DNA of 52,992 nucleotides from Octopus sinensis (lineage: Eukaryota): contig NW_021834296.1 in NCBI RefSeq assembly GCF_006345805.1, forward strand, positions 1 to 52,992, given 5' to 3'. The translations under genes and the position numbers were made by a program. Positions 3,513 through 35,468 of this stretch are shown here, piece by piece; positions within the stretch are counted from its first letter, which is position 1, and every line of letters begins with the position of its first letter. Below the pieces are notes generated by a model. The model had not been told where the DNA came from. It made no database searches and was given only the letters and a program-made list of their open reading frames with translations.

Positions 3513-5435
3513 GCTGAAGAGGCCTGAGCCATTGAGAAGATCAAACTCAATCCCAAAGTGTTCTTTTCATTTGCAAAAAAACACAGAGTCACTGGTTCTA
3601 CTGTTGGCCCTCTGATTGATGAAAATGGTACTCTTCAAGACAATGCCAAAACCATGGGAGAGATATTGCAGAAACAATATTGCTCTGTTTTCAGCAATCC
3701 TGATATGACTGATCTGGGCTGTATCAGTGATGTTACTCCCCAATACACTTTATCGGACATAACCTTTGGGGCTCCTGATGTCTTAGCAGCAATAAAGGAA
3801 ATGAAGCATAATTCAGCAGTAGGTCCCGATAGGTTCCCTGCTTGTGTCTTGAAGATGTGTCAAAACCAACTTGCACCCCTCTAGCCAAACTGTGGCGGAA
3901 CTCACTGGATGCTGGATATATACCAGAAGACCTTCTATCCCAGTCTGTTGTCCTAGTTTTCAAAAAAGGAAACAAATCGCTTGCCGTGAATTACCGTCCA
4001 ATCTCACTCACCTCTCATATCATTAAGGTATTTGAGAGAGTGCTGAGATCACGCATGACTCACTTCCTTGAGAGTCATAATATGCTGAACTCCAACCAGG
4101 ATGGATTCCGTAATGGGAGAGATTGCCTGACGCAGCTACTGCATCATTTTGATGACATTTTGAGAGCCTTGGGAGAGGGTTCCAACACTAATGTCATCTA
4201 CTTTGATTTCAGCAAGGCCTTTGACAGGGTTGATCATAAGATCCTTCTGAGAAAGCTGTCCAATATTGGTGTCACTGGAAAGCTTCTGCAGTGGATCAAG
4301 TGCTTCCTGTCTAACAGAACCCAACATGTTGTAGTCGAAGGAGCCAAATCCAGCCCAGCCAAAGTCAGCAGTGGTGTCCCACAAGGCACTGTGTTGGGCC
4401 CACTTCTCTTCATCATCTACATAAGTGATATTACTGACACCATCAAACACAGTAACATCAGAACCTTCGCTGATGATTCCAAGCTCCAGAAGGTCATCAA
4501 TGGCGTGGATGATCGAATAACCTTCAGTCAGACCTACTGGCTGTGTCCAATGGGCGGAAAAGAATAACATGTTGCTAAATGAAGACAAATTCGAACTGAT
4601 CCACTTTGGAAGGGAGGACGCTCTGAAACTCCCCTACTCTCTTCCTTCTGGAGAAATTTTCATGGCATCCAACAACATCAGAGACTTGGGAGTAACAGTG
4701 GACAACAACATAAGCTGGGCTACACATATAAGCAGCAAAGTTGACATGGCCCGCAGAATGTGTTCCTGGATTCTCGGAACCTTCCAGACGAACATTCCCA
4801 CACTATTATCCTTCTCTTCTCCACTTTTGCCCGACCCCACCTTGAATGCTGCTGTCCACTGTCGTCTCCCTACACAAAACAAAATATTATGAGAATTGAA
4901 GCTCCCCAAAGGTCAATCACAAAAATGATAGATGGCATGTCAGACCTTGACTACTGGGGTAGACTAGAGAAGCTGAAACCGTATTCACTCCAACGACGCC
5001 GTGAACGCTACATTATCTGTATGATGTGGAAAATAACCATCAGCACTGTCCGAATGATGTTGGCATCACCTTCAAAATACATCCCAGGCTTGGACCACGT
5101 GCCATCCGTCCACAACAAAAATCTAAATCGCATCACATAACGACAATAGGGCACAACTATTTCACCTCAATTGGACCCGCTCTCTTCAACATTACACCAG
5201 GACACGTCAAAACAGAAACTGACCACACAAAATTCAAGAAGTCTTTGGACAAATTCCTTCAAACAGTCTCGGACAAACCACCCACACCCGGATATGTCTC
5301 CGCAAACAATAACTCTCTGCTCGAATCGGCCTTGGTGCCCAAATCCTGAATTGAAAGACTTCGCCAGGTAGTGCTAATAAGTTAGACATGGCCTGGGCCA
5401 ATACTGGCCAAAACCTTTCTAAGTTATTCTAAGTT
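3513..5435 (+). mobile_element. 5'-truncated CR1/Jockey-group LINE, reverse transcriptase pseudogene
   Basis: Motifs YRPISLTSHIIKVFERV, YFDFSKAFD, GVPQGTVLGPLLF and FADDSK spread over frameshifted ORFs; repeated ttctaagtta tail. Confidence 0.92.
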
Positions 5436-13818: not shown

Positions 13819-14540
13819 TTAATCCCTTTTACTGTAGGCAGAAGGCCTGAAATTTTAGCGGTGGGGGATAGTCGATCACATCGCTCCCCTCCCGCCACTG
13901 TTTCAGTGGTTTTTGTTACAATCCTCCCAGCGTACCACCTGAAGAATAACACCAACCAAAACATCAATATCAATAATGATGGTGGTGATGCTGCTGCTGA
14001 TGATGATGATAATTATGATGATGAAGATGATGGTGGTGATGGTTATGATGAGGATGATGATGATGATGAGATGATGATGATGATGATGATGATGATAATG
14101 ATGATGAAGATGATGGTGATGATGATGATGATGATGATAATGATGAAGATGATGATGATGGTTATGATGAGGATGATGATGATGATGATAATGGTGGTGA
14201 TGATGATGATGGTGGTGATGGTGGTGGTGATGATGATGATGACGACGATGATGATGATGGTAATGATGAGGATGTTGATGATGATGATGATAATGATGAT
14301 GAAGATGATGATGGTGGTGGTGGTGATGATGATGATGATGACGAAGACGATGATGATGGTTATGATGATGATGATTATGATGATTATGATGATGAAGATG
14401 ATGATGGTGGTGGTAGTGGTGATGATGATGATGATTATGATGATGACGACGATGATGATGATGATGGTTATGATGAGGATGGTGATGATGATGATACATA
14501 AGTGTTACATCCATGCAATGAATTTGTTTTACTTTTCCAG

Positions 14541-14660
14541 ACAGAAACGAGTGCAGATGGAAGTATGTGTGCGGAAGATACGGGAGATGCATCAACACCC
14601 CAGGATCCTACAGATGTTTCTGTCGTCGAGGTTTCCGTTTCAATGGGAGAACATGCGTTG
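14541..14660 (+). CDS. Calcium-binding EGF exon, type B (copy 1)
   Basis: ttccag| [39 protein letters not shown] |gtaagt; NEC and CxNTxGSY consensus. Confidence 0.9.
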
Positions 14661-14989
14661 GTAAGTGAAGCAGAATAGACAACAACAACAACAACACACG
14701 TTTATGTATAAGTAATAATCTTTTCTACTCTAGACAGAAGGCCTGGAATTTTGGTGTGTGGTAAGTCGATTACGTCGACCCCACTACTCACCTGGTACTC
14801 AATTTATCGACCCCAAAACGATGGAAGGCAAAGTCGACCTCTGTGAAATTTGAACTCAGAACGTAGCGACATACGAAATACCGCAAAGATTTCGCCCCGC
14901 ACGCTAACGACTCTGCCAGCTCGAGACCTTAATAAAAATAATAATAATAATAATAATAATAATATAATAATAATAATAATAATAATAAC

Positions 14990-16140
14990 TGAGACATGGC
15001 TACGGTTGCATAAAGGAAGTTTAAAATGGGAGAAATTTTTTAGTAGCAGCACGGGATCAAGTTTTAAGGACTAATTGGATAAACACCAAGATATACAAAA
15101 ACCAATTAGATTCCAAATGTAGCCTATGCAAATCAAAGGAAGAAGGCATTTCTCATATAGTAATTGAATATAGCATGACGTCACAGAAAGAATTCAAGAA
15201 AATATATGACATCTTCGGTAGAGTAATCCACTGGGATTTGTGTGGACATCTAGGATTTTTAACATGCTGACAAATGGTATGAACACGAACCTGGAAAAGT
15301 ATTAGAAAGTAAGAAATATAAGATGTTGTGGGAGTTCGTCATTCAGACTGACAGTAATAGAAGCTAGAAGGCCTGATTTGGTAGCAGAAGATAAAGAGAA
15401 TAGAAAGTGCCAGATAACCGACTTTACGGTCCCAAATGATGAAAACATTAATATGGGAAGTATAGAAAAAAAATGAGGCCCAATGGCCCACTGGTTAGGG
15501 CAGCGGACTCGCGGTCATAGGATCGCGGTTTCGATTCCCAGACCGGGCGTTGTGAGTGTTTATTGAGCGAAAACACCTAAAAAGCTCCACGATGCTCTGG
15601 CAGGGGATGGTGGTGATCCCTGCTGTGCTCTTTCACCACAACTTTCTCTCACTCTTACTTCCTGTTTCTGTTGTACCTGTATTTCAAGGGGCCGGCCTTG
15701 TCACTCTCAGTGTCACACTGAATTTCCCCGAGAACTACGTTAAGGGTGCACGTGTCAGTGGAGTGCTCAGCCACTTACACGTTAATTTCACGAGCAGGCT
15801 GTTCCATTGATTCGGATCAACCGGAACCATCATCGTCGTAACCAACGGAGTGCTTCCATCCATAGAAAAAATAGCAGAGTACCAGGACGTAGCCATTGAA
15901 TTACCGAAACTATGGAAAGTGCGGGTAAAATGCGTCCCAGTAGTTATAGGAGCATTGGAAACTATCCCTAAAGGTCTGAACAGATGGAGAGAGGACATAG
16001 GCAGAAAACCCAGTTTCGTACAGCTCCAGAAAACAGTGTTATTATGGACAGCTAAGAAGCTTAGGAGGGATCTTGGCATCTAAGGTTACTTGCTGCAACC
16101 CAATAGGTGGGTTCTTGATATTTAAGGCGGCTTGTAGACC
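14990..16140 (+). mobile_element. 3' fragment of an R4/Dong-like non-LTR element (restriction-like endonuclease); duplicate at about 19185-20340
   Basis: HWDLC, WYEHEP, RRPDLV, VPVVIGAL and LQKTVLL motifs; frameshifted; interrupted by a SINE. Confidence 0.75.
15475..15861 (+). mobile_element. Full-length tRNA-derived SINE with target-site duplication; duplicate at 19672-20057
   Basis: A and B boxes; flanked on both sides by atagaaaaaa, splitting the host coding sequence at IEK. Confidence 0.85.
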
Positions 16141-16203
16141 CCTGTTTGGGTCTTTTCTTTTCTAACAGTCTGGCTGGTTGTGTGTATATGAATAATAATA
16201 ATA

Positions 16204-16260
<57 letters not shown>

Positions 16261-16381
16261 TAATAATGATGGTGATGATGATGATGATTGATGATGATGA
16301 TGATAATAATAATAATAATGATGATGATGATGATGTGTGATGATGATGATGATGATGAGATGATGATGATGATGATGATGT

Positions 16382-16433
<52 letters not shown>

Positions 16434-16717
16434 AATGATGATTTCCAAATTGCCACAGAGGGCAAGTAATTCTGGGTCGGGGATAAGTCGATTACATCGA
16501 CCCCAGTGAACATCTGTTACTTATTCAATCGACCCGGAAGCGATGAAAGGCAAAGTTGACGTCTGTGGTGTTTGAACTTAGAAAGAACAGACGCTGTCGA
16601 AATGACACCCGGTGTGGTAACTATCTGTCATTATGATGATGATCATGATGATGATGATGATGATGAAAGAATTCTGATTGTTATATATAATTGTGTTATT
16701 TCTGTTCTGCTTTCCAG

Positions 16718-16837
16718 CCGTCGGAGGACCGTGCAGATGGAATCGGTGCGGGAGAAATGGTAGATGCGTCAAGAGAGGAACCTCTTTCACTTGTTACTGC
16801 AGACGGGGCTATTATTTCAATAGAAGAACATGTGTTG
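16718..16837 (+). CDS. EGF-like exon, type A (copy 2)
   Basis: AVGGPCRWNRCGRNGRCVKRGTSFTCYCRRGYYFNRRTCV; canonical splice sites, 120 nt. Confidence 0.88.
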
Positions 16838-16907
16838 GTAAGTAAAGGACAAACAGCAGCTACAAGAACAATATACACACGTATATCTATAAGCAATTGG
16901 CTGGGAG

Positions 16908-16999
<92 letters not shown>

Positions 17000-17304
17000 A
17001 AGAAGAAAAAAGATAATAATAATTAATTCGCTTATTCGCCACAAGGGCTAACAAAAATCAATTATACCATAAAGGGACAAAACACAGGACTAAAGTTACA
17101 AAGTGTTTTTCCGTTTGAAAAATCCGTGTAAAAATCAGTGTAACAACGAACATATTTAATGTCACAAACTTTTGGGGGAATCGGTCTAGTCGATTACATC
17201 GACCCCAGAGTATAACTGGTGCTTATTACATTGACCCAACCCCAAATAATGCATCTGTTTTATATACATGCAATTAAGTGCAATAAATTTGTTTTCATTT
17301 GCAG

Positions 17305-17424
17305 ATGTAAACGAGTGTAGAAGGAGTTTTCGATGCGGTAGATACGGGAAATGCGTCAACACAATAGGGTCCTACAAATGTTTGTGTAAACCAGGGTTCC
17401 GTTTCAATGGGAGAACATGTGTTC
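17305..17424 (+). CDS. Calcium-binding EGF exon, type C (copy 1)
   Basis: ttgcag| [40 protein letters not shown]; weak donor gtagat, read-through gives RR-stop at 17432. Confidence 0.82.
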
Positions 17425-17798
17425 GTAGATAAAGCACACAACAACAACAAAACGTGTAAGTATAAGTAATTGGGTTGAATTCTTCGGGGTTTGGATAATT
17501 CACCTTTGGAATCGTGGGTGTTTCGTTCAACATCCTTAAACAACCCTTATTCAGGAAATTTTTTAAAGGGATAGGCTACTCGACCAAAAGAAAATTCTAA
17601 CTGGGCCCTCCCCTCCCCAGAAAGGTCAGGTGCTATTTATCTTCATATGAGGTCACCATGTCGCGCACATATGGTTGTGATGCATATGCCTGGTCTACCC
17701 TTATCAGACGGGTATTCATGATGGGTATACTTGGCTTCTTATATTTTACCCCAGTGTCACTTTGATGGCATGCACTGCTCTCTAACTCAATAATAATA

Positions 17799-17851
<53 letters not shown>

Positions 17852-18736
17852 TTAATCCCTTTTACTATAGGCAGAAGGCCTGAAATTTTAGCGGTGGGGG
17901 TTAGTCGATCACATCGCTCCCCTCCCGCCACTGTTTCAGTGGTTTTTGTTTACAATCCTCCCAGCGTACCACCTGAAGAATAACACCAACCAAAACATCA
18001 ATATCAATAATGATGGTGGTGATGGTGGGGGTGATGCTGCTGCTGATGATGATGATAATTATGATGATGAAGATGATGGTGGTGATGGTTATGATGAGGA
18101 TGATGATGATGATGATGATGATGATGGTGGTGATGATGATGGTGGTGATGGTGGTGGTGATGATGATGATGACGACGATGATGATGATGGTTATGATGAG
18201 GATGGTTATGATGAGGATGGTTATGATGAGGATGGTGAAGATGATGAAGATGATGATGATGGTGGTGGTGGTGATGATGATGATGATGATGATATGATGA
18301 TGAAGATGATGGTGATGATGATGATAATGACGACGATGATGATGATGGTTATGATGAGGATGGTGATGATGATGATGATGATGATGGTGGTGATGATGAT
18401 GGTGGTGGTGATGATGATGGTGATGATGATGATGACGACGATGATGATGATGGTAATGATGAGGATGTTGATGATGATGATGATAATGATGATGAAGATG
18501 ATGATGGTGGTGGTGGTGATGATGATGATGATGACGAAGACGATGATGATGGTTATGATGATGATGATGATGATGATGATTATGATGATGAAGATGATGA
18601 TGGTGGTGGTAGTGGTGATGATGATGATGATGATTATGATGATGACGACGATGATGATGATGGTTATGATGAGGATGATGATGATGATGATACATAAGTG
18701 TTACATCCATGCAATGAATTTGTTTTACTTTTCCAG

Positions 18737-18856
18737 ACAGAAACGAGTGCAGACGGAAGTATGTGTGCGGAAGATACGGGAGATGCATCAACACCCCAGG
18801 ATCCTACAGATGTTTCTGTCGTCGAGGTTTCCGTTTCAATGGGAGAACATGCGTTG
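18737..18856 (+). CDS. Calcium-binding EGF exon, type B (copy 2)
   Basis: [39 protein letters not shown]; one W>R change from copy 1. Confidence 0.82.
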
Positions 18857-19124
18857 GTAAGTGAAGCAGAATAGACAACAACAACAACAACACACGTTTA
18901 TGTATAAGTAATAATCTTTTCTACTCTAGACAGAAGGCCTGGAATTTTGGTGTGTGGTAAGTCGATTACATCGACCCCACTACTCACCTGGTACTCAATT
19001 TATCGACCCCAAAACGATGGAAGGCAAAGTCGACCTCTGTGAAATTTGAACTCAGAACGTAGCGACATACGAAATACCGCAAAGATTTCGCCCCGCACGC
19101 TAACGACTCTGCCAGCTCGACACC

Positions 19125-19186
<62 letters not shown>

Positions 19187-20403
19187 TGAGACATGGCTAC
19201 GGTTGCATAAAGGAAGTTTGAAATGGGAGAAATTTTTTAGTAGCAGCACGGGATCAAGTTTTAAGGACTAATTGGATAAACACCAAGATAGACAAAAACC
19301 AATTAGATTCCAAATGTAGCCTATGCAAATCAAAGGAAGAAGGCATTTCTCATATAGTAATTGAATATAGCATGACGTCACAGAAAGAATTCAAGAAAAT
19401 ATATGACATCTTCGGTAGAGTAATCCACTGGGATTTGTGTGGACATCTAGGATTTTTAACATGCTGACAAATGGTATGAACACGAACCTGGAAAAGTATT
19501 AGAAAGTAAGAAATATAAGATGTTGTGGGAGTTCGTCATTCAGACTGACAGTAATAGAAGCTAGAAGGCCTGATTTGGTAGCAGAAGATAAAGAGAATAG
19601 AAAGTGCCAGATAACCGACTTTACGGTCCCAAATGATGAAAACATTAATATGGGAAGTATAGAAAAAAAATGAGGCCCAATGGCCCACTGGTTAGGGCAG
19701 CGGACTCGCGGTCATAGGATCGCGGTTTCGATTCCAGACCGGGCGTTGTGAGTGTTTATTGAGCGAAAACACCTAAAAAGCTCCACGATGCTCTGGCAGG
19801 GGATGGTGGTGATCCCTGCTGTGCTCTTTCACCACAACTTTCTCTCACTCTTACTTCCTGTTTCTGTTGTACCTGTATTTCAAGGGGCCGGCCTTGTCAC
19901 TCTCAGTGTCACACTGAATTTCCCCGAGAACTACGTTAAGGGTGCACGTGTCAGTGGAGTGCTCAGCCACTTACACGTTAATTTCACGAGCAGGCTGTTC
20001 CATTGATTCGGATCAACCGGAACCATCATCGTCGTAACCAACGGAGTGCTTCCATCCATAGAAAAAATAGCAGAGTACCAGGACGTAGCCATTGAATTAC
20101 CGAAACTATGGAAAGTGCGGGTAAAATGCGTCCCAGTAGTTATAGGAGCATTGGAAACTATCCCTAAAGGTCTGAACAGATGGAGAGAGGACATAGGCAG
20201 AAAACCCAGTTTCGTACAGCTCCAGAAAACAGTGTTATTATGGACAGCTAAGAAGCTTAGGAGGGATCTTGGCATCTAAGGTTACTTGCTGCAACCCAAT
20301 AGGTGGGTTCTTGATATTTAAGGCGGCTTGTAGACCCCTGTTGGGTCTTTTCTTTTCTAACAGTCTGGCTGGTTGTGTGTATATGAATAATAATAATAAT
20401 AAT

Positions 20404-20463
<60 letters not shown>

Positions 20464-20569
20464 TAATAATGATGGTGATGATGATGATGATGATGTTGGT
20501 GTTGATGATCATAATGATGATAATGATGATGATGATGATGTGTGATGATGATGATGATGATGATGATGT

Positions 20570-20633
<64 letters not shown>

Positions 20634-20917
20634 AATGATGATTTCCAAATTGCCACAGAGGGCAAGTAATTCTGGGTCGGGGATAAGTCGATTACATCGA
20701 CCCCAGTGAACATCTGTTACTTATTCAATCGACCCGGAAGCGATGAAAGGCAAAGTTGACGTCTGTGGTGTTTGAACTTAGAAAGAACAGACGCTGTCGA
20801 AATGACACCCGGTGTGGTAACTATCTGTCATTATGATGATGATCATGATGATGATGATGATGATGAAAGAATTCTGATTGTTATATATAATTGTGTTATT
20901 TCTGTTCTGCTTTCCAG

Positions 20918-21037
20918 CCGTCGGAGGAGCGTGCAGATGGAATCGGTGCGGGAGAAATGGTAGATGCGTCAAGAGAGGAACCTCTTTCACTTGTTACTGC
21001 AGACGGGGCTATTATTTCAATAGAAGAACATGTGTTG
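20918..21037 (+). CDS. EGF-like exon, type A (copy 3)
   Basis: AVGGACRWNRCGRNGRCVKRGTSFTCYCRRGYYFNRRTCV; canonical splice sites. Confidence 0.82.
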
Positions 21038-21107
21038 GTAAGTAAAGGACAAACAGCAGCTACAAGAACAATATACACACGTATATCTATAAGCAATTGG
21101 CTGGGAG

Positions 21108-21145
<38 letters not shown>

Positions 21146-21154
21146 TAATAATAA

Positions 21155-21185
<31 letters not shown>

Positions 21186-21472
21186 AAGAAGAAGAAGAAG
21201 AAGAAAAAAGATAATAATAATTAATTCGCTTATTCGCCACAAGGGCTAACAAAAATCAATTATACCATAAAGGGACAAAACACAGGACTAAAGTTACAAA
21301 GTGTTTTTCCGTTTGAAAAATCCGTGTAAAAATCAGTGTAACAACGAATCGGTCTAGTCGATTACATCGACCCCAGAGTATAACTGGTGCTTATTACATT
21401 GACCCAACCCCAAATAATGCATCTGTTTTATATACATGCAATTAAGTGCAATAAATTTGTTTTCATTTGCAG

Positions 21473-21592
21473 ATGTAAACGAGTGCAGAAGGAGTTTTCG
21501 ATGCGGTAGATACGGGAAATGCGTCAACACAATAGGGTCCTACAAATGTTTGTGTAAACCAGGGTTCCGTTTCAATGGGAGAACATGTGTTC
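21473..21592 (+). CDS. Calcium-binding EGF exon, type C (copy 2)
   Basis: Same peptide as copy 1; weak donor gtagat; read-through stop at 21600. Confidence 0.8.
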
Positions 21593-21995
21593 GTAGATAA
21601 AGCACACAACAACAACAAAACGTGTAAGTATAAGTAATTGGCTTGAATTCTTCGGGGTTTGGATAATTCACCTTTGGAATCGTGGGTGTTTCGTTCAACA
21701 TCCTTAAACAACCCTTATTCAGGAAATTTTTTAAAGGGATAGGCTACTCGACCAAAAGAAAATTCTAACTGGGCCCTCCCCTCCCCAGAAAGGTCAGGTG
21801 CTATTTATCTTCATATGAGGTCACCATGTCGCGCACATATGGTTGTGATGCATATGCCTGGTCTACCCTTATCAGACGGGTATTCATGATGGGTATACTT
21901 GGCTTCTTATATTTTACCCCAGTGTCACTTTGATGGCATGCACTGCTCTCTAACTCAATAATAATAATAATAATAATATAATAATAATAATAATG

Positions 21996-22049
<54 letters not shown>

Positions 22050-23584: not shown

Positions 23585-24297
23585 CAACCAAATTGTTTTG
23601 CTATTAGTGCCTTATTTTTAGTGTAACCACCTTTGAAAGACATCGACTTACCTTTAGAATGAAAAAAGGGGTTTAAATAACGGTTATCTCCCTTCCTCTG
23701 TTTGGTGTTGGTGTATAAATTAAAACTGATATCGTTTATATCCTTACAGCTAGATTTCATGTCTCCCTTACTAAAGGTAGAATAAGATTGAATGCAATCA
23801 ATGTAGATAACTTTATCTGTATAAACTGCTTTAAGTAAGGCAGGGGTACAAAATTGAGCCTTGTCGTTAAAAGTGCCTACATTCGCAGAGAACTTAGAAA
23901 ATCTAAATGAAATATTCTTAACTAAGTTCTTAGTGATCGCCCTAGAATGATTATTTAATTGGCTAATATACTTAAGGTTGGTCGATGGCTTGTGGTATGG
24001 GACGTAAGAATTATTGTGTAAGTTAAGTTGGCTTTCGTTACATCATCCTAAAGACAATGCCTAAACCCATTCTACGGAAAAAAAAACTTAACTGAAGTAT
24101 TCTTAACATTTTGTACTTTTTGGTCAGAAACATTTTTGAGGTAAAGTAAACAATCAACAAGATATAGACCTCTGTTGATGTTTGGGAACTGGTCTGCCAT
24201 TTCAGAAAGTATATATATTCAGACCAAATCAGCTACTTGTGCTGAAGCAGATCTTCCCATCGTGATATCAAAACCATCGGGTGTGTCTTTATGGACC

Positions 24298-24353
<56 letters not shown>

Positions 24354-28787: not shown

Positions 28788-31624
28788 AACCGGGTGGTGG
28801 ACTAGCGTTGCTTGGAATTGTGAATGGATTAGTGTGGTAGTGAGGTATGCATCGAGAATAGTTATGGGTTACTGTAAGTTGTTTGTTAGAGCTGCTAGGG
28901 TGAGCTAAAGCTCATAAATGTATATAATGATTTTCATGGTAGTTTTTATAGAATCCATTCATAATAAATTTTTTTAAGTAGCGTTGGTTTGCTACGTGAT
29001 ATAGTTTTTAGTTCCATTTATTATATTTCTCCATTCATATTTTGAATGACGTTTACTTTCTATGGCGCGTATTCTTTTTTTACATAAGTTATTTCTATGG
29101 TAACGTAATTTTTGTTTGGTTTTTTAACGGCTAAGAATTTAATTTCACTTCATAATTTGTAACTGAATTGTAAGTATGTATTTGATTTATCCTTATGTCA
29201 TATTGTTATTTTTGATATTCTGGTTAATTACGATGTATTTAATGTTGTTTTCATAGGAGTGTTTATGTATATGAGATTGGTTGTGAGTTTTTAGTTGTAT
29301 AATTAATTTATTTATCTGTATGAGTGTGGGTGTGTAAATATTGTTGTATATATCGAGTTTAGTGAGTATGTATATGCGTATATGTGAGGGAGTATATGTA
29401 TCTGTTGTGTGTGTGTGTTTTGCGTGTGTGTGTGTTTGTGTGTGAATGTGTATTTGGGTTTGTTATTTAGGTTTTGGGATGTATGTGTTAATTTGTCTGT
29501 GTGGGAGGGAGTGGGTTTTGGTGTATTTTGAGGTTTATAAGTTAGTATAGGTTTGTGTATAAGTCTTGGGTCTGTGGTTTACGTGTGTGTATTTGTGTGT
29601 GAATGTTTAGGTTAGGGGGATTGCTATATAAGTTTGTTATAGGGTTTAGCAAAGGGAGATTTTATCGTTATATGCTTTTATGAGTTTTGGTTTATCATGG
29701 TTTTTTTTAGGTAATTCGTGGTAATTTGTCTATTTTCGATGTTGGTTATTTTTTTACATTGTTTCATTCATAATTTTTGAGTGGTGTTCGTTTTGCCACG
29801 TGCATAACCGGGTGGTGGACTAGCGTTGCTTGGAATGTGAATGGAATAGTGTAGTAGTGAGGTAGGCATAGAGAATGGGATTGGGTTACTGCAAGTTGTT
29901 TGTTAGAGCTGCTAAGCTGAGTTAAAGCTCATAAATGTATTTAATGATTTTTGTGGGTGTGTAAGTATTGTTGTATATGTCGAGTTTAGTGAGTATGTAT
30001 ATGCGTATATGTGAGGGAGTATATGTATCTGTTGTGTGTGCGTGTTTTGCGTGTGTGTGTGTGTTTGTGTGTGAATGTGTATATGGGTTTGTTATTTAGG
30101 TTTTGGGATGTATGTGTTAATTTGTCTGTGTGGGGAGGGAGTGGGTTTTGGTGTATATTGAGGTTTATAAGTTAGTATAGGTATGTGTATAAGTCGTGGG
30201 TCTGTGGTTTACGTGTGTGTATTTGTGTGTGAATGTTTAGGTTAGGGGGATTACTATATAGGTTTGTTTTAGAATTTAGCAAAGGGAGATTTTATCGTTA
30301 TATGTTTTTAAGAGTTTTGTTTTATCATGGTTTTTTTTAGGTAATTCGTGGTAATTTGTCTATTTTCGATGTTGGTTATTTTTTTACATTGTTTCATTCA
30401 TAATTTTTGAGTGGTGTTCGTTTTGCCACGTGCATAACCGGGTGGTGGACTAGCGTTGCTTGGAATTGTGAATGGAATAGTGTAGTAGTGAGGTAGGCAT
30501 AGAGAATGGGATTGGGTTACTGCAAGTTGTTTGTTAGAGCTGCTAAGCTGAGTTAAAGCTCATAAATGTATTTAATGATTTTTGTGGGTGTGTAAGTATT
30601 GTTGTATATGTCGAGTTTAGTGAGTATGTATATGCGTATATGTGAGGGAGTATATGTATCTGTTGTGTGTGCGTGTTTTGCGTGTGTGTGTGTGTTTGTG
30701 TGTGAATGTGTATATGGGTTTGTTATTTAGGTTTTGGGATGTATGTGTTAATTTGTCTGTGTGGGGAGGGAGTGGGTTTTGGTGTATATTGAGGTTTATA
30801 AGTTAGTATAGGTATGTGTATAAGTCGTGGGTCTGTGGTTTACGTGTGTGTATTTGTGTGTGAATGTTTAGGTTAGGGGGATTACTATATAGGTTTGTTT
30901 TAGAATTTAGCAAAGGGAGATTTTATCGTTATATGTTTTTAAGAGTTTTGTTTTATCATGGTTTTTTTTAGGGAATTCGTGGTAATTTGTCTATTTTCGA
31001 TGTTGGTTATTTTTTTACATTGTTTCATTCATAATTTTTGAGTGGTGTTCGTTTTGCCACGTGCATAACCGGGTGGTGGACTAGCGTTGCTTGGAATTGT
31101 GAATGGAATAGTGTAGTAGTGAGGTAGGCATAGAGAATGGGATTGGGTTACTGCAAGTTGTTTGTTAGAGCTGCTAAGCTGAGTTAAAGCTCATAAATGT
31201 ATTTAATGATTTTTGTGGGTGTGTAAGTATTGTTGTATATGTCGAGTTTAGTGAGTATGTATATGCGTATATGTGAGGGAGTATATGTATCTGTTGTGTG
31301 TGCGTGTTTTGCGTGTGTGTGTGTGTTTGTGTGTGAATGTGTATATGGGTTTGTTATTTAGGTTTTGGGATGTATGTGTTAATTTGTCTGTGTGGGGAGG
31401 GAGTGGGTTTTGGTGTATATTGAGGTTTATAAGTTAGTATAGGTATGTGTATAAGTCGTGGGTCTGTGGTTTACGTGTGTGTATTTGTGTGTGAATGTTT
31501 AGGTTAGGGGGATTACTATATAGGTTTGTTTTAGAATTTAGCAAAGGGAGATTTTATCGTTATATGTTTTTAAGAGTTTTGTTTTATCATGGTTTTTTTT
31601 AGGGAATTCGTGGTAATTTGTCTA
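28788..31624. repeat. G/T-rich tandem array, ~631-bp unit, about four copies (the first has an extra ~390 bp)
   Basis: aaccgggtggtggactagcgttgcttgga at 28788, 29806, 30436 and 31067. Confidence 0.92.
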
Positions 31625-31749
31625 TATTTTCGATATGGATTATATATAGGTTATATATGGATTATATACTTATATTTTTTCATTTATACTTTAATTATTT
31701 AAAATTATTATTTTTATATTTTAAAATTTTGATTTTTTAGATTGGAAGT

Positions 31750-31792
31750 CCACCTGAAGATTGTCGATCAAGACAAGAAACGATTGTAGTGG
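31750..31792 (+). ncRNA. Minimal type I hammerhead ribozyme
   Basis: ccac CTGAAGA ttgtc gatcaa gacaa GAAA c gatt g TA gtgg; all three stems Watson-Crick paired, core intact. Confidence 0.82.
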
Positions 31793-31885
31793 CGGTTTTT
31801 TTGACTATTTATTAAAATTTTATGTATTGATTAAGTCTTTCCTTGTTTGCTTTGCAAAATAGTGGTTTTGTCTCTAATAATATTT

Positions 31886-31917
<32 letters not shown>

Positions 31918-32148
31918 TATAATTAATCAATATAGGGTGGCAAAAAAAATTTTGTAGAATTCCTTTTGCCACCAGCGGCCTAGTGGGAAAAAATTAAATA
32001 GTCACAGACCATTTTTAAGTTCAACATCAACAATCAAGGAACGGCCATAATAGGCCATTCACCCACTAGAAATAACAGCCAAAGCTTCAACCGCAAATAA
32101 AGATTAATTCCGTAAACAGGAGAAAATTTAAAAAACATTTACCCTGTA

Positions 32149-32255
32149 ATTTCTTGTACGATGTACCGTTTCATCTGCTGTTTAATGGTAAACTAACCTG
32201 ATTAAATTAAATCAAGCCAATCTTCCATAGGCCCTCAGATTCTTCAGCAAGAAAT
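32149..32255 (-). ncRNA. Type I hammerhead ribozyme, extended stem II (unit 1)
   Basis: Reverse complement of the motif at 33185-33291. Confidence 0.8.
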
Positions 32256-32639
32256 AGCCAAGTCGGAACAGATATTTTCACGAGGCATTTCCGACCCTGC
32301 CAAGGCAATATCTGACCTAAAATTTTCAAATCGTCGCACTCGCGCCAAATTTATCGGCAGCAAATAAATATAAGCCGCCGATTCCATTACGGAATTAACC
32401 AGAAAATCCATAATTAATCAATATAGGGTGGCAAAAAAAATTTTGTAGAATTCCTTTTGCCACCAGCGGCCTAGTGGGAAAAAATTAAATAGTCACAGAC
32501 CATTTTTAAGTTCAACATCAACAATCAAGGAACGGCCATAATAGGCCATTCACCCACTAGAAATAACAGCCAAAGCTTCAACCGCAAATAAAGATTAATT
32601 CCGTAAACAGGAGAAAATTTAAAAAACATTTACCCTGTA

Positions 32640-32746
32640 ATTTCTTGTACGATGTACCGTTTCATCTGCTGTTTAATGGTAAACTAACCTGATTAAATTA
32701 AATCAAGCCAATCTTCCATAGGCCCTCAGATTCTTCAGCAAGAAAT
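32640..32746 (-). ncRNA. Type I hammerhead ribozyme, extended stem II (unit 2)
   Basis: Identical copy 491 bp downstream of unit 1. Confidence 0.8.
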
Positions 32747-33184
32747 AGCCAAGTCGGAACAGATATTTTCACGAGGCATTTCCGACCCTGCCAAGGCAAT
32801 ATCTGACCTAAAATTTTCAAATCGTCGCACTCGCGCCAAATTTATCGGCAGCAAATAAATATAAGCCGCCGATTCCATTACGGAATTAACCAGAAAATCC
32901 ATAATTAATCAATATAGGGTGGCAAAAAAAATTTTGTAGAATTCCTTTTGCCACCAGCGACCTAGTGGGAAAAAATTAAATAGTCACAGACCATTTTTAA
33001 GTTCAACATCAACAATCAAGGAACGGCCATAATAGGCCATTCACCCACTAGAAATAACAGCCAAAGCTTCAACCGCAAATAAAGATTAATTCCGTAAACA
33101 GTGCGACGATTTGAAAATTTTAGGTCAGATATTGCCTTGGCAGGGTCGGAAATGCCTCGTGAAAATATCTGTTCCGACTTGGCT

Positions 33185-33291
33185 ATTTCTTGCTGAAGAA
33201 TCTGAGGGCCTATGGAAGATTGGCTTGATTTAATTTAATCAGGTTAGTTTACCATTAAACAGCAGATGAAACGGTACATCGTACAAGAAAT
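33185..33291 (+). ncRNA. Type I hammerhead ribozyme, extended stem II (inverted copy)
   Basis: atttcttg CTGAAGA atctg [insert] cagat GAAA cg gtacat cg TA caagaaat; 8-bp stem I, 5-bp stem II base. Confidence 0.8.
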
Positions 33292-33410
33292 TACAGGGTA
33301 AATGTTTTTTAAATTTTCTCCTGTTTACGGAATTAATCTTTATTTGCGGTTGAAGCTTTGGCTGTTATTTCTAGTGGGTGAATGGCCTATTATGGTCGTT
33401 CCTTGATTGT

Positions 33411-33444
<34 letters not shown>

Positions 33445-33450
<6 letters not shown>

Positions 33451-34078
33451 AATGCTGGACATAACAAGCATCGGATGTGGCAGGCAAGAAAGATGTTTGC
33501 GCTGGTATAGTCATGTTCTCCGGATGGATGAGAAGAGATGTGCGAAAAAGTGCCACTCCCAAACAGTTGAAGGAATCCGGGGTAGAGGTAGACCCAGGAA
33601 GACATGGAATGAGGTGATTAAGCATGACCTTCGAGCGTTGGGCCTCACAGAGGCAATGACGAAAGACCGAGACATCTGGAGATATGCTGTAACTGCGATG
33701 ACCCGACAAATAACGTGAGGCTGTTTCCTGCAGCAGCTTCACATAACAGCCCCAACCCATCGGAAATACCTTGGATCGCAGGACGGCCTGCTGTGGTTAC
33801 CTTGGATCGTGGGGTGACCTGCTGTGCTTGAGGAGACCTATTGAGTCAAGTACATCAACATCAAATGGAAATTGTAGTTCTGATACCCGCGCCAATGGCA
33901 CTTTCAAAACACCATCTCAACGTGACTGATGCCACCGCCGTCTTGACTGGCTTCCGTGCTGGGGGCACATAAAAAACACCATTCGATCGTGGCCGTTGCC
34001 AGCCTCCTGGCTTCCCAGACCCCGGTCGAACCGTCCAACCCATGCTAGCATGGAAAACGGACGTTAAACGATGATGAT
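33445..34078 (+). mobile_element. RTE-clade LINE 3' end and 3' UTR
   Basis: LRWYSHVLRM ... RGRGRPRKTW; ends in ggacgttaaacgatgatgat. Confidence 0.85.
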
Positions 34079-34817
34079 ATATATATTTATATACATATAT
34101 ATATATATATATATACACACATACATTTCTGTGTGTATGTATGTGGTATGTATGTACGTACGTACGTATGTATGTATTATGTATGTATGTATGTACGTGT
34201 ATGTGTGTATGTATGTACGTACGTAAATATGTACGTATGTATGTATGTATATATGTATGTATGTATATATGTATTATGCATGTATTACGTATGTATGTAT
34301 GTATGTATGTATGTACATATGTACGTCTGTATATACGTATGTATGTACGTATGTATGTATGTATGTGTGTGTGTGTGCGTGCGTGTATAGTGGCTTTGTG
34401 TGTATGTCTGTCGTTTACGTTTATCTCCATGTGACTTAGCGGTTCGCTATAAGAGGCCAATAAAATCTACCAGACAGAAGTAAGAAATAACTTGTGTCAA
34501 TTTCTTAGATTACAATTCTTCAATGCGGTGCCCCAGCGTGGCCGCAGTCTAGTAACTGAAAAATGTGAAAAAAACTACAAAATTCCTCAGTAACACCTTA
34601 AGCTAAGGGACGTAACTCTTGTACCTCACACTGGCTTTACCTGCTAGAAATAGCAGCCAAAATGGTTTTAAGCCAGATCCCAATGCTGGATCGTCAAGAA
34701 CCAAATGTAGAGCAGAGTTTCAATCCTGGGATCATCCTGATTCCAAAAAGGTAGAATATGTCTATGTAGACTGAGGGACAGGGGTCACAGGCACATGGGA
34801 ATTTCGCTTTTATTAAT

Positions 34818-35468
34818 GTGGCGAGCTGGCAGAAACGTTAGCACGCCGGGCGAAATGCTTAGCAGTATTTCGTCTGCCGTTACGTTCTGGGTTCAAATTC
34901 CGCCGAGGTCGACTTTGCCTTTCATCCTTTCGAGGCCCATTAAATAAGTACCTGTTACGCACTGGGCTCGATATAATCGACTTAATATGTTTGTCTGTCC
35001 TTGCTTGTTCCCTCTGTGTTTAGCCCCTTGTGGGTACTAAAGAAATAGGTATTTCGTCTGCCGTTACGTTCTGAGTTCAAATTCCTTTCATCCTTTCAGG
35101 GTCGATAAATTAAGTACCAGTTACGCACTGGGCTCGATATAATCGACTTAATCCGCTTTTCTGTCCTTGTTTGTCCCGTCTGTGTTTAGCCTCTTGTGGG
35201 CAGTAAAGAAATAGGTATTTCGTCTGCCGTTACATTCTGGTTTCAAATTCCACCGATGTCGACTTTGCCTTTCATCCTTCCGAGGTCCATAAAATATGTA
35301 CCAGTTATGCACTGGGGTCGATATAAACGACTTAATCCGTTTGTCTGTCCTTGTTTGTCTCCTCTGTGTTTAGCCCCTTGTGGGTAGTAAAGAAATAGGT
35401 ATTTCGTCTGCCGTTACGTTCTGAGTTCAAATTCCGCCGAGGTCGACTTTGCCTTTCATCCTTTCGGA
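34818..35468 (+). mobile_element. Tandem multimer of a tRNA-derived SINE
   Basis: One 5' head followed by about 3.5 repeats of ggtatttcgtctgccgttacgttctgagttcaaattcc ... gtaaagaaata. Confidence 0.8.

What the first reader, a model, noticed from the sequence alone, without database searches (positions are those of the whole stretch)
33185..33291. Hammerhead stem II carries a long G-U-rich hairpin, indicating strand-specific RNA structure
Seen: inside stem II, agattggcttgatt pairs with aatcaggttagttt (14 bp, five G-U). A second 16-bp hairpin at 31936-31973 has two G-U pairs only on the ribozyme strand. Inference: G-U pairs become A-C mismatches on the other strand, so the structure is probably selected as RNA. 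The ~60-nt insert is far longer than in minimal hammerheads and may be a protein-binding or tertiary-contact module. The stem III palindrome GUAC could support dimeric cleavage.
Basis: partly seen in the sequence, partly recalled or inferred. Interest (0 to 1): 0.72.

Follow-up and report, generated by a model that had tools for sequence, protein, structure and literature searches.

The report
Pseudoknotted long-arm hammerhead in a retrozyme
This is a hammerhead ribozyme motif with an unusually long side hairpin, inside a protein-less 491-base repeat that has thousands of copies in this animal genome; related copies keep the hairpin paired while changing its letters, the motif likely locks its fold through a short pseudoknot at the hairpin's base, it is predicted to cut its RNA as a dimer, and the repeat is likely spread by Penelope-type retrotransposons.

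Summary
The hairpin has 14 bp with five G-U (18 of 19 positions with its extension) and folds only on the ribozyme strand (z -4.2 vs -0.4). The motif is a type I hammerhead in a 491-nt tandem, protein-less repeat (3,589 genome matches, control 0) inserted head-to-head in (TA)n: a Penelope-derived retrozyme. The interpretation needs three corrections. (1) The '60-nt insert' is loop 2 split by a distal helix of variable length and sequence, shared by many families here. (2) The likely tertiary contact is a 3-bp pseudoknot at its base (GGC/GCC, swapped to AGC/GCU), not the G-U helix. (3) GUAC is out of register; 61 of 62 loci carry in-register UGCA or UAUA, and this copy is the exception. G-U pairs are tolerated rather than required. 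75 of 78 two-armed insertions have one long and one short 3' end. Cleavage, circles and the helper element are not shown. The scan has noted similar elements before, here and in other genomes.

The parts
31886..31921 (.). (TA)n microsatellite, left target flank
31919..33101 (-). Long-ended arm: partial unit (u291-491) plus two full 491-nt units, 3' end at u491 against (TA)n
33100..33414 (+). Short-ended inverted arm (u70-384), 3' end against (AT)n; 2-nt overlap with the other arm at 33100-33101
33413..33444 (.). (AT)n microsatellite, right target flank
33185..33291 (+). Type I hammerhead: stem I 33185-33192 / 33284-33291, core CUGAAGA 33193-33199, GAAA 33268-33271, predicted cut after GUA between 33283 and 33284
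   Evidence: cleavage inferred from the consensus core, not assayed
33200..33267 (+). Stem II: basal helix 33200-33204 / 33263-33267, 7x7 internal loop 33205-33211 / 33256-33262, distal helix 33212-33230 / 33237-33255, apical loop 33231-33236
33181..33183 (+). GGC in the stem I internal loop, 5' side of the predicted pseudoknot
33208..33210 (+). GCC in the stem II internal loop, 3' side of the predicted pseudoknot
33271..33282 (+). Stem III and loop; window allele UACA breaks the in-register palindrome of most copies (UGCA, UAUA)
32640..32746 (-). Second copy of the same hammerhead
32149..32255 (-). Third copy of the same hammerhead
31919..32025 (-). 107-nt 'tail' (u385-491) between the two recurrent 3' ends
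31936..31973 (-). 16-bp hairpin inside the tail (repeated at 32427-32464 and 32918-32955)

Best explanation
The stretch is a type I hammerhead in a non-coding 491-nt tandem repeat, with loop 2 opened into an internal loop and capped by an 18-bp helix; the internal loop likely supplies the stem I-stem II contact as a 3-bp pseudoknot, and the G-U-rich helix is likely a shape-conserved, sequence-flexible cap. Shown: anatomy, copy number, covariation of stems I, II and III, complementarity of the two loops, in-register palindromic stem III in most copies, (TA)n targets, and one long plus one short 3' end per two-armed insertion. Inferred: read-through RNA of a tandem array would fold two hammerheads into a dimer through stem III, cut after GUA, and give 491-nt monomers that likely circularise. 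A Penelope-like RT/endonuclease would then nick (TA)n on both strands and prime at two fixed internal sites 107 nt apart, each arm running round the template a variable number of times before the two cDNAs join. This window's own copy is predicted to dimerise poorly.
For: Core pattern 3,589 matches, reversed control 0. Distal helix in 12 relatives: 89.9% of cells paired, 6 of 19 pairs with double changes, slid controls 20-47%; the MAFFT alignment was gapless and fixed by two anchors. Basal helix II and stem I swap pairs together across loci (G-C 38 / A-U 18; U-A 47 / C-G 9; G-C 27 / A-U 28). All 4 distal-helix alleles found in 3 or more loci keep or add a pair. Loop I / loop II complementarity of 3 or more Watson-Crick pairs in 53 of 67 combinations (partner-shuffled mean 33.9, 0 of 2000 reach it), with GGC/GCC in 74 and AGC/GCU in 13 locus-allele counts and GGUG/CACC in two other families. 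Loop III is self-complementary at 93% of positions in register vs 21-44% when shifted; 31 of 39 clusters fully so. Stem II spans 33-83 nt across 39 clusters. 75 of 78 two-armed insertions have one long and one short end, 176 of 179 3' ends touch (TA)n, 17 single-locus alleles lie on both arms, and in 34 of 75 neither arm fits inside the other. A protein-coding PLE family here has the same basal-helix / loop / hairpin stem II in 23 of 30 loci, two 3' ends and (TA)n targets. Two RT start sites bounding the tail were shown in vitro for a Poseidon element (PMC11167929).
Against: No cleavage, circle or strand of transcription was shown. Pair 10.1-11.1 is A-U rather than the usual G-C. Relatives are related by descent, so cells are not independent events: the AGC/GCU swap may be a single event, and 2 locus-allele counts show AGC with GCC. 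Within the family only 7 of 11 distal alleles keep pairing, against 40% expected (p 0.10). Several other long-stem-II families show no such pseudoknot (14 of 67 below 3 pairs). Only 24 of 39 clusters fold with z below -2 on the ribozyme strand, and 18 also do on the other strand. Neither PLE family tested matches the unit in sequence, so the helper is not identified.
Confidence: 0.75

Rival explanations
1. The distal helix is a specific binding handle for the Penelope RT or a host protein, and its wobble pairs are part of the recognition surface.
For: The helix carries few alleles within the family and its apical loop has none; the apical UUUAAUUUAAU is shared with sister families; a protein-assisted PLE hammerhead is described (PMC11167929).
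Against: G-U positions are Watson-Crick in sister families; helix length and sequence vary widely among families with the same insertion pattern; the recurrent priming sites lie 130 and 237 nt downstream of the cut, not at stem II.
Confidence: 0.15
2. The helix has no role in the ribozyme. It is part of the general self-pairing that retrozyme circles need for stability, and G-U richness reflects the G+U-rich strand.
For: The whole monomer folds as a 64%-paired circle, -153.6 vs -112.5 kcal/mol for shuffles; G-U excess is not significant against composition; retrozyme circles are described as highly self-paired (PMC7229834).
Against: Does not explain the fixed position of the internal loop and its complementarity to loop I. 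It is compatible with the best explanation for the distal part alone.
Confidence: 0.25
3. The G-U pairs are A-to-I edits of the RNA template that were fixed by retrotransposition.
For: Three of the five G-U positions are A-U in sister families. A first count gave A>G 7 vs T>C 2 among locus-fixed single alleles in 43 loci (p 0.04). Contigs of guessed-RNA runs show excess A>G.
Against: With 101 loci the skew vanished: 3 vs 3; minor alleles overall 24 vs 21, p 0.13. Direction of change between families was not established.
Confidence: 0.07
4. The hairpins are DNA-level inverted repeats or decayed satellite with no RNA function.
For: The tail hairpin folds on both strands; Rfam finds no hammerhead.
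Against: Invariant catalytic core with free position 7, pair swaps in three stems, strand-specific folding of stem II, 12 G-U vs 2 A-C types.
Confidence: 0.03

Closest known systems
Metazoan non-LTR retrozymes (Cervera and de la Pena 2020, PMC7229834, passages and section 14 read; Li, Clavereau and Pollet 2026, bioRxiv 10.64898/2026.07.22.740005, part 1 of 5 and passages read)
   Same: Tandem, protein-less, low-GC units with one type I hammerhead each; thousands of copies; self-paired monomer; co-existence with PLEs.
   Different: Unit of 491 nt (170-400 nt in the 2020 text; 51-972 bp among families in the 2026 text); stem II of 68 nt with an internal loop and distal helix; predicted loop-loop pseudoknot; regular two-armed insertions in (TA)n. 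Circles were shown there, not here.
Hammerheads of Penelope-like elements (Cervera and de la Pena 2014, PMC4209133, parts 1-2 of 4 read; review PMC6765202, passages)
   Same: Type I, palindromic stem III / loop 3 suited to dimers, high family diversity within one genome.
   Different: Helix II there is 4-8 bp with conserved G10.1-C11.1; here 5 bp plus a 7x7 loop plus 18 bp, with A10.1-U11.1, and no ORF.
Pseudoknotted natural hammerheads (Perreault et al. 2011, PMC3088659, passages read)
   Same: Base-paired contact between stems I and II in all three topologies; palindromic loop III in repeat-type hammerheads.
   Different: Here both partners are internal loops, and loop 2 carries a long distal helix. 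Their supplementary figures were not seen.
Insertion architecture of endonuclease-bearing PLEs (Craig et al. 2021, PMC8557442, passages; Frangieh et al. 2024, PMC11167929, parts 1-2 of 4)
   Same: 5'-truncated tandems, inverted 5' copy, a tail often at one end only, (TA)n bias, two RT start sites bounding the tail.
   Different: Tail is 107 nt rather than 30-40; one-long-one-short holds in 75 of 78 two-armed insertions and never long-long or short-short, whereas the in vitro work saw no start-site difference between strands.

Membership tests
Type I hammerhead ribozyme | Core CUGANGA...GAAA...UH with position 7 free | tested here: met
   position 7 is A, U or C across copies
Type I hammerhead ribozyme | Three helices, stem I open, supported by covariation | tested here: met
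Type I hammerhead ribozyme | Usual G10.1-C11.1 pair | tested here: not met
   A-U in 48 of 56 loci; G-C or G-U occurs in sister families; natural variation at this pair is reported (PMC3088659)
Type I hammerhead ribozyme | Stem I-stem II tertiary contact | tested here: inconclusive
   3-bp complementarity with a compensatory swap; few independent events, no structural data
Type I hammerhead ribozyme | Match to an Rfam hammerhead model | tested here: not met
   No hit at gathering score or at E up to 5; likely due to the 68-nt stem II (inference)
Type I hammerhead ribozyme | Self-cleavage at the predicted site | not testable with these tools
   Only contigs were available
Non-LTR retrozyme | Tandem units each with a type I hammerhead | tested here: met
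Non-LTR retrozyme | No protein coding | tested here: met
   No ORF of 100 aa or more inside 31919-33370; no PLE protein match in the unit
Non-LTR retrozyme | Dispersed high copy number | tested here: met
   3,589 core matches; 457 long and 717 short ends on the forward strand alone
Non-LTR retrozyme | Accumulation as circular RNA | not testable with these tools
   Tandem DNA holds the same junction as a circle; no raw reads
PLE-mobilised element | 5' truncation, inverted arm, one-sided tail, microsatellite target | tested here: met
PLE-mobilised element | Sequence homology to the pLTR of an autonomous PLE | tested here: not met
   Two families tested, 30 loci each: best E 0.5, no hit at E 1; other PLE families not tested

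The most novel reading that the evidence does not exclude
This genome holds a radiation of split-loop-2, pseudoknotted hammerheads that Rfam misses, and the hammerhead dimer is also the transposition substrate: two sister monomers held by palindromic stem III are copied by a Penelope RT dimer, one from the long start and one from the short start, with the stem II helix as the protein handle. That would explain why two-armed insertions always have one end of each kind.
Probability: 0.12. Interest if true: 0.72.

Novelty: new variant of a known kind. Interest (0 to 1): 0.42.

Why it matters
It gives a natural hammerhead architecture, loop 2 split by a helix of free length with the tertiary contact kept at its base, that standard models miss although thousands of copies exist in one genome. 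Hammerhead and retrozyme counts in animal genomes may therefore be underestimates. The families form a ready natural series for testing what the helix and pseudoknot do. The strict one-long-one-short rule and the shared alleles of both arms make a poorly understood step of Penelope transposition testable in vitro. The class itself (retrozyme, PLE-type insertion, dimeric hammerhead) is known.

Tried and rejected
Rfam at two thresholds: no hammerhead. Upstream CA-rich region translated for a PLE ORF: none. pattern was mis-specified (one base too many at the cut site) and is disregarded. No RNA holder listed; contigs cannot show ends, strand or circles. GUAC as the dimer palindrome: rejected, out of register. 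G-U pairs as fixed A-to-I edits: initial skew not reproduced; a tree-based polarisation was not obtained, so direction of change stays open. General G-U excess over whole stem II in 39 clusters: none. One arm as a DNA fold-back copy of the other: impossible in 34 of 75 insertions. Junction microhomology: median 1 nt, 30 of 78 with inserted or unmatched bases, no clear rule. Helper search: a Neptune-like family (RT, CxxC linker, GIY-YIG) and a Hydra-like family, neither homologous to the unit; the clade names are my reading of motifs, no tree was built. A genome-wide G-U versus A-C count was not obtained; the test rests on fetched loci. Lunse et al. on dimeric PLE hammerheads was not held and is cited only through PMC6765202. 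Literature searches listed no paper describing this split-loop-2 form; 'octopus' and 'cephalopod' were my guessed search terms, no call names the organism. PMC13282606 has no occurrence of ribozyme, hammerhead or retrozyme in its main text. Supplementary figures of PMC4209133, PMC7229834, PMC3088659 and PMC8557442 were not seen and may show similar forms.

Full report
Observation. The sequence is as described. 33217-33230 pairs with 33237-33250 (14 bp, five G-U), and four more pairs follow an A.A mismatch. The 58-nt segment folds only on the ribozyme strand: z -4.20 against -0.40. The hairpin at 31936-31973 is real but folds on both strands (z -4.22 and -3.08), and its two G's are minor alleles among the copies. 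Rfam finds no hammerhead at either threshold, but the core CUGAAGA...GAAA...GUA with three helices is plain.

Context. The motif lies in one insertion, 31919-33414, inside a (TA)n run: a minus-strand arm of 2.4 units of 491 nt and a plus-strand arm of 315 nt, joined head-to-head with a 2-nt overlap. It has no ORF. The genome (2.72 Gb) has 3,589 matches to the core pattern, reversed control 0. I examined 101 insertions: 43 chosen for having the long end and 6 more; three are copies of one insertion. Of these, 78 are two-armed. 75 of the 78 have one arm ending near u491 and the other near u384, none has two ends of one kind, and the three exceptions are cut by my fetch window (2) or truncated (1). 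176 of 179 3' ends touch (TA)n. The arms share non-majority alleles at 598 positions against 11 discordant, and 17 of 33 single-locus alleles are seen on both arms. In 34 of 75 neither arm fits inside the other, so one is not a DNA copy of the other. This matches Penelope-type insertions with an inverted 5' copy and a one-sided tail (PMC8557442, passages), and the two RT start sites that bound the tail in vitro (PMC11167929).

Is the helix selected as RNA? Within the family, stem I and basal helix II swap whole pairs between subfamilies. In the distal helix all four alleles found in three or more loci keep or add a pair; over all 11 alleles, 7 do (40% expected, p 0.10). Sister families, 71-75% identical downstream of the ribozyme, give more depth. 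Twelve distal regions (7 subfamily copies, 5 sister copies; copies with apparent indel errors or a shorter arm left out) align without gaps and show 89.9% paired cells and 6 of 19 pairs changed on both sides, against 20-47% paired when slid. An 18-sequence alignment gives the same picture for stems I, II and III. These relatives share ancestry, so the counts overstate independent events. Distinct G-U pair types outnumber A-C 12 to 2 (p 0.013 against strand symmetry), but the arms are G+U-rich and the excess over composition is not significant (p 0.16). Over whole stem II regions of 39 clusters there is no excess. The strand argument is therefore right for this family, while the G-U pairs themselves are interchangeable with Watson-Crick pairs.

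What the insert is. Pattern searches with shorter spacers gave 1,334 and 1,761 further matches (controls 30 and 13). Among those I fetched, stem II runs from 33 to 83 nt in 39 clusters and mostly folds as basal helix, internal loop, distal hairpin; 24 of 39 have z below -2. So the insert is loop 2 opened and capped, not a module peculiar to this copy. After reading an earlier scan note about a pseudoknot in another genome, I tested loop-loop pairing. GGC (33181-33183) in the stem I internal loop is complementary to GCC (33208-33210). One subfamily has AGC with GCU, and two other families have GGUG with CACC. Of 67 combinations kept (35 of 102 dropped as single-unit variants), 53 have three or more Watson-Crick pairs, against 33.9 with shuffled partners. 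Fourteen do not, mostly in more distant families. Pseudoknots between stems I and II are known in natural hammerheads (PMC3088659, passages). The likely tertiary contact is thus at the base of the insert.

Dimer. A dimeric hammerhead needs self-complementarity centred between A15.1 and U16.1. GUAC is one base off that axis. Of 62 loci, 51 have UGCA and 10 UAUA, both in register; only the window's locus has UACA, which gives two A.C mismatches and a predicted duplex of -7.1 against -17.5 and -18.8 kcal/mol. Eighteen of the 20 genome matches to the GUAC form come from six near-identical copies of this locus. Across 39 clusters loop III is 93% self-complementary in register and 21-44% when shifted. 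Palindromic helix III and dimer cleavage are established for PLE hammerheads (PMC4209133; PMC6765202).

Helper. A young Neptune-like family with intact ORFs has a short-stem-II hammerhead variant and no match to the unit. The helper is not identified; clade names rest on my reading of motifs.

Mechanism. Shown: anatomy, covariation, complementarity, insertion pattern. Inferred: dimer cleavage after GUA, monomer circles, and priming of both target strands at two fixed sites by a PLE protein. Not shown: transcription, cleavage, circles, protein binding. The idea that the G-U pairs are fixed A-to-I edits was tested and lost its support with more loci.

Verdict. A new variant of a known kind: a non-LTR retrozyme (PMC7229834; bioRxiv 10.64898/2026.07.22.740005) with an elaborated, probably pseudoknotted stem II. 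My searches listed no description of this form, but supplements were not seen and one key paper was not held. The scan has noted similar elements in this and other genomes; nothing was on record for this sequence or place. Interest 0.42.

Noticed in passing
window 33120-33410, laid contigs: Contigs of three guessed-RNA runs labelled organism B (three studies) show A>G at 12, 17 and 15 places (G>A 2, 1, 1), against 5 A>G in the large run of the same label. Two runs also show T>C at 13 and 16 places. This looks like A-to-I hyper-editing of both strands, as expected if head-to-head arms fold back, but RNA status is a guess and no matched DNA exists.
   Followed up: partly
window 31650-34900: The whole locus with flanks recurs at 99.7-100% on five other places (C11577, C11362, C11170, C27 twice): segmental duplication or redundant assembly.
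   Followed up: partly
window 29325-31634: A strongly G+T-skewed tandem repeat of about 630 nt, 3.7 copies, 95-99% identical, next to the element; no ORF seen.
   Followed up: no
window 13999-22024: A direct duplication of about 3.9 kb at 97% identity, rich in ATG and AAT triplet runs.
   Followed up: no
window 23803-24299 (-): Decayed fragments of a PLE-type reverse transcriptase.
   Followed up: no
L229-L258: Hydra-like PLE family whose hammerhead-like motif has C instead of U at core position 4 (CCGAAGA) in all 23 hits, with a tail of about 70 nt.
   Followed up: partly
L127 (G000:C1665): Tandem Neptune-like elements with open frames of 811 and 923 aa; pLTR hammerhead variant starts with U at core position 3.
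   Followed up: partly
L105: A family with an 83-nt stem II (59 nt in one copy), the longest seen, many near-identical copies.
   Followed up: no
L095 minus strand, about 3620-3830: A GIY-YIG endonuclease fragment directly abuts the 5' end of a sister retrozyme array in the same orientation, with no (TA)n between: a template switch or a chance insertion.
   Followed up: no
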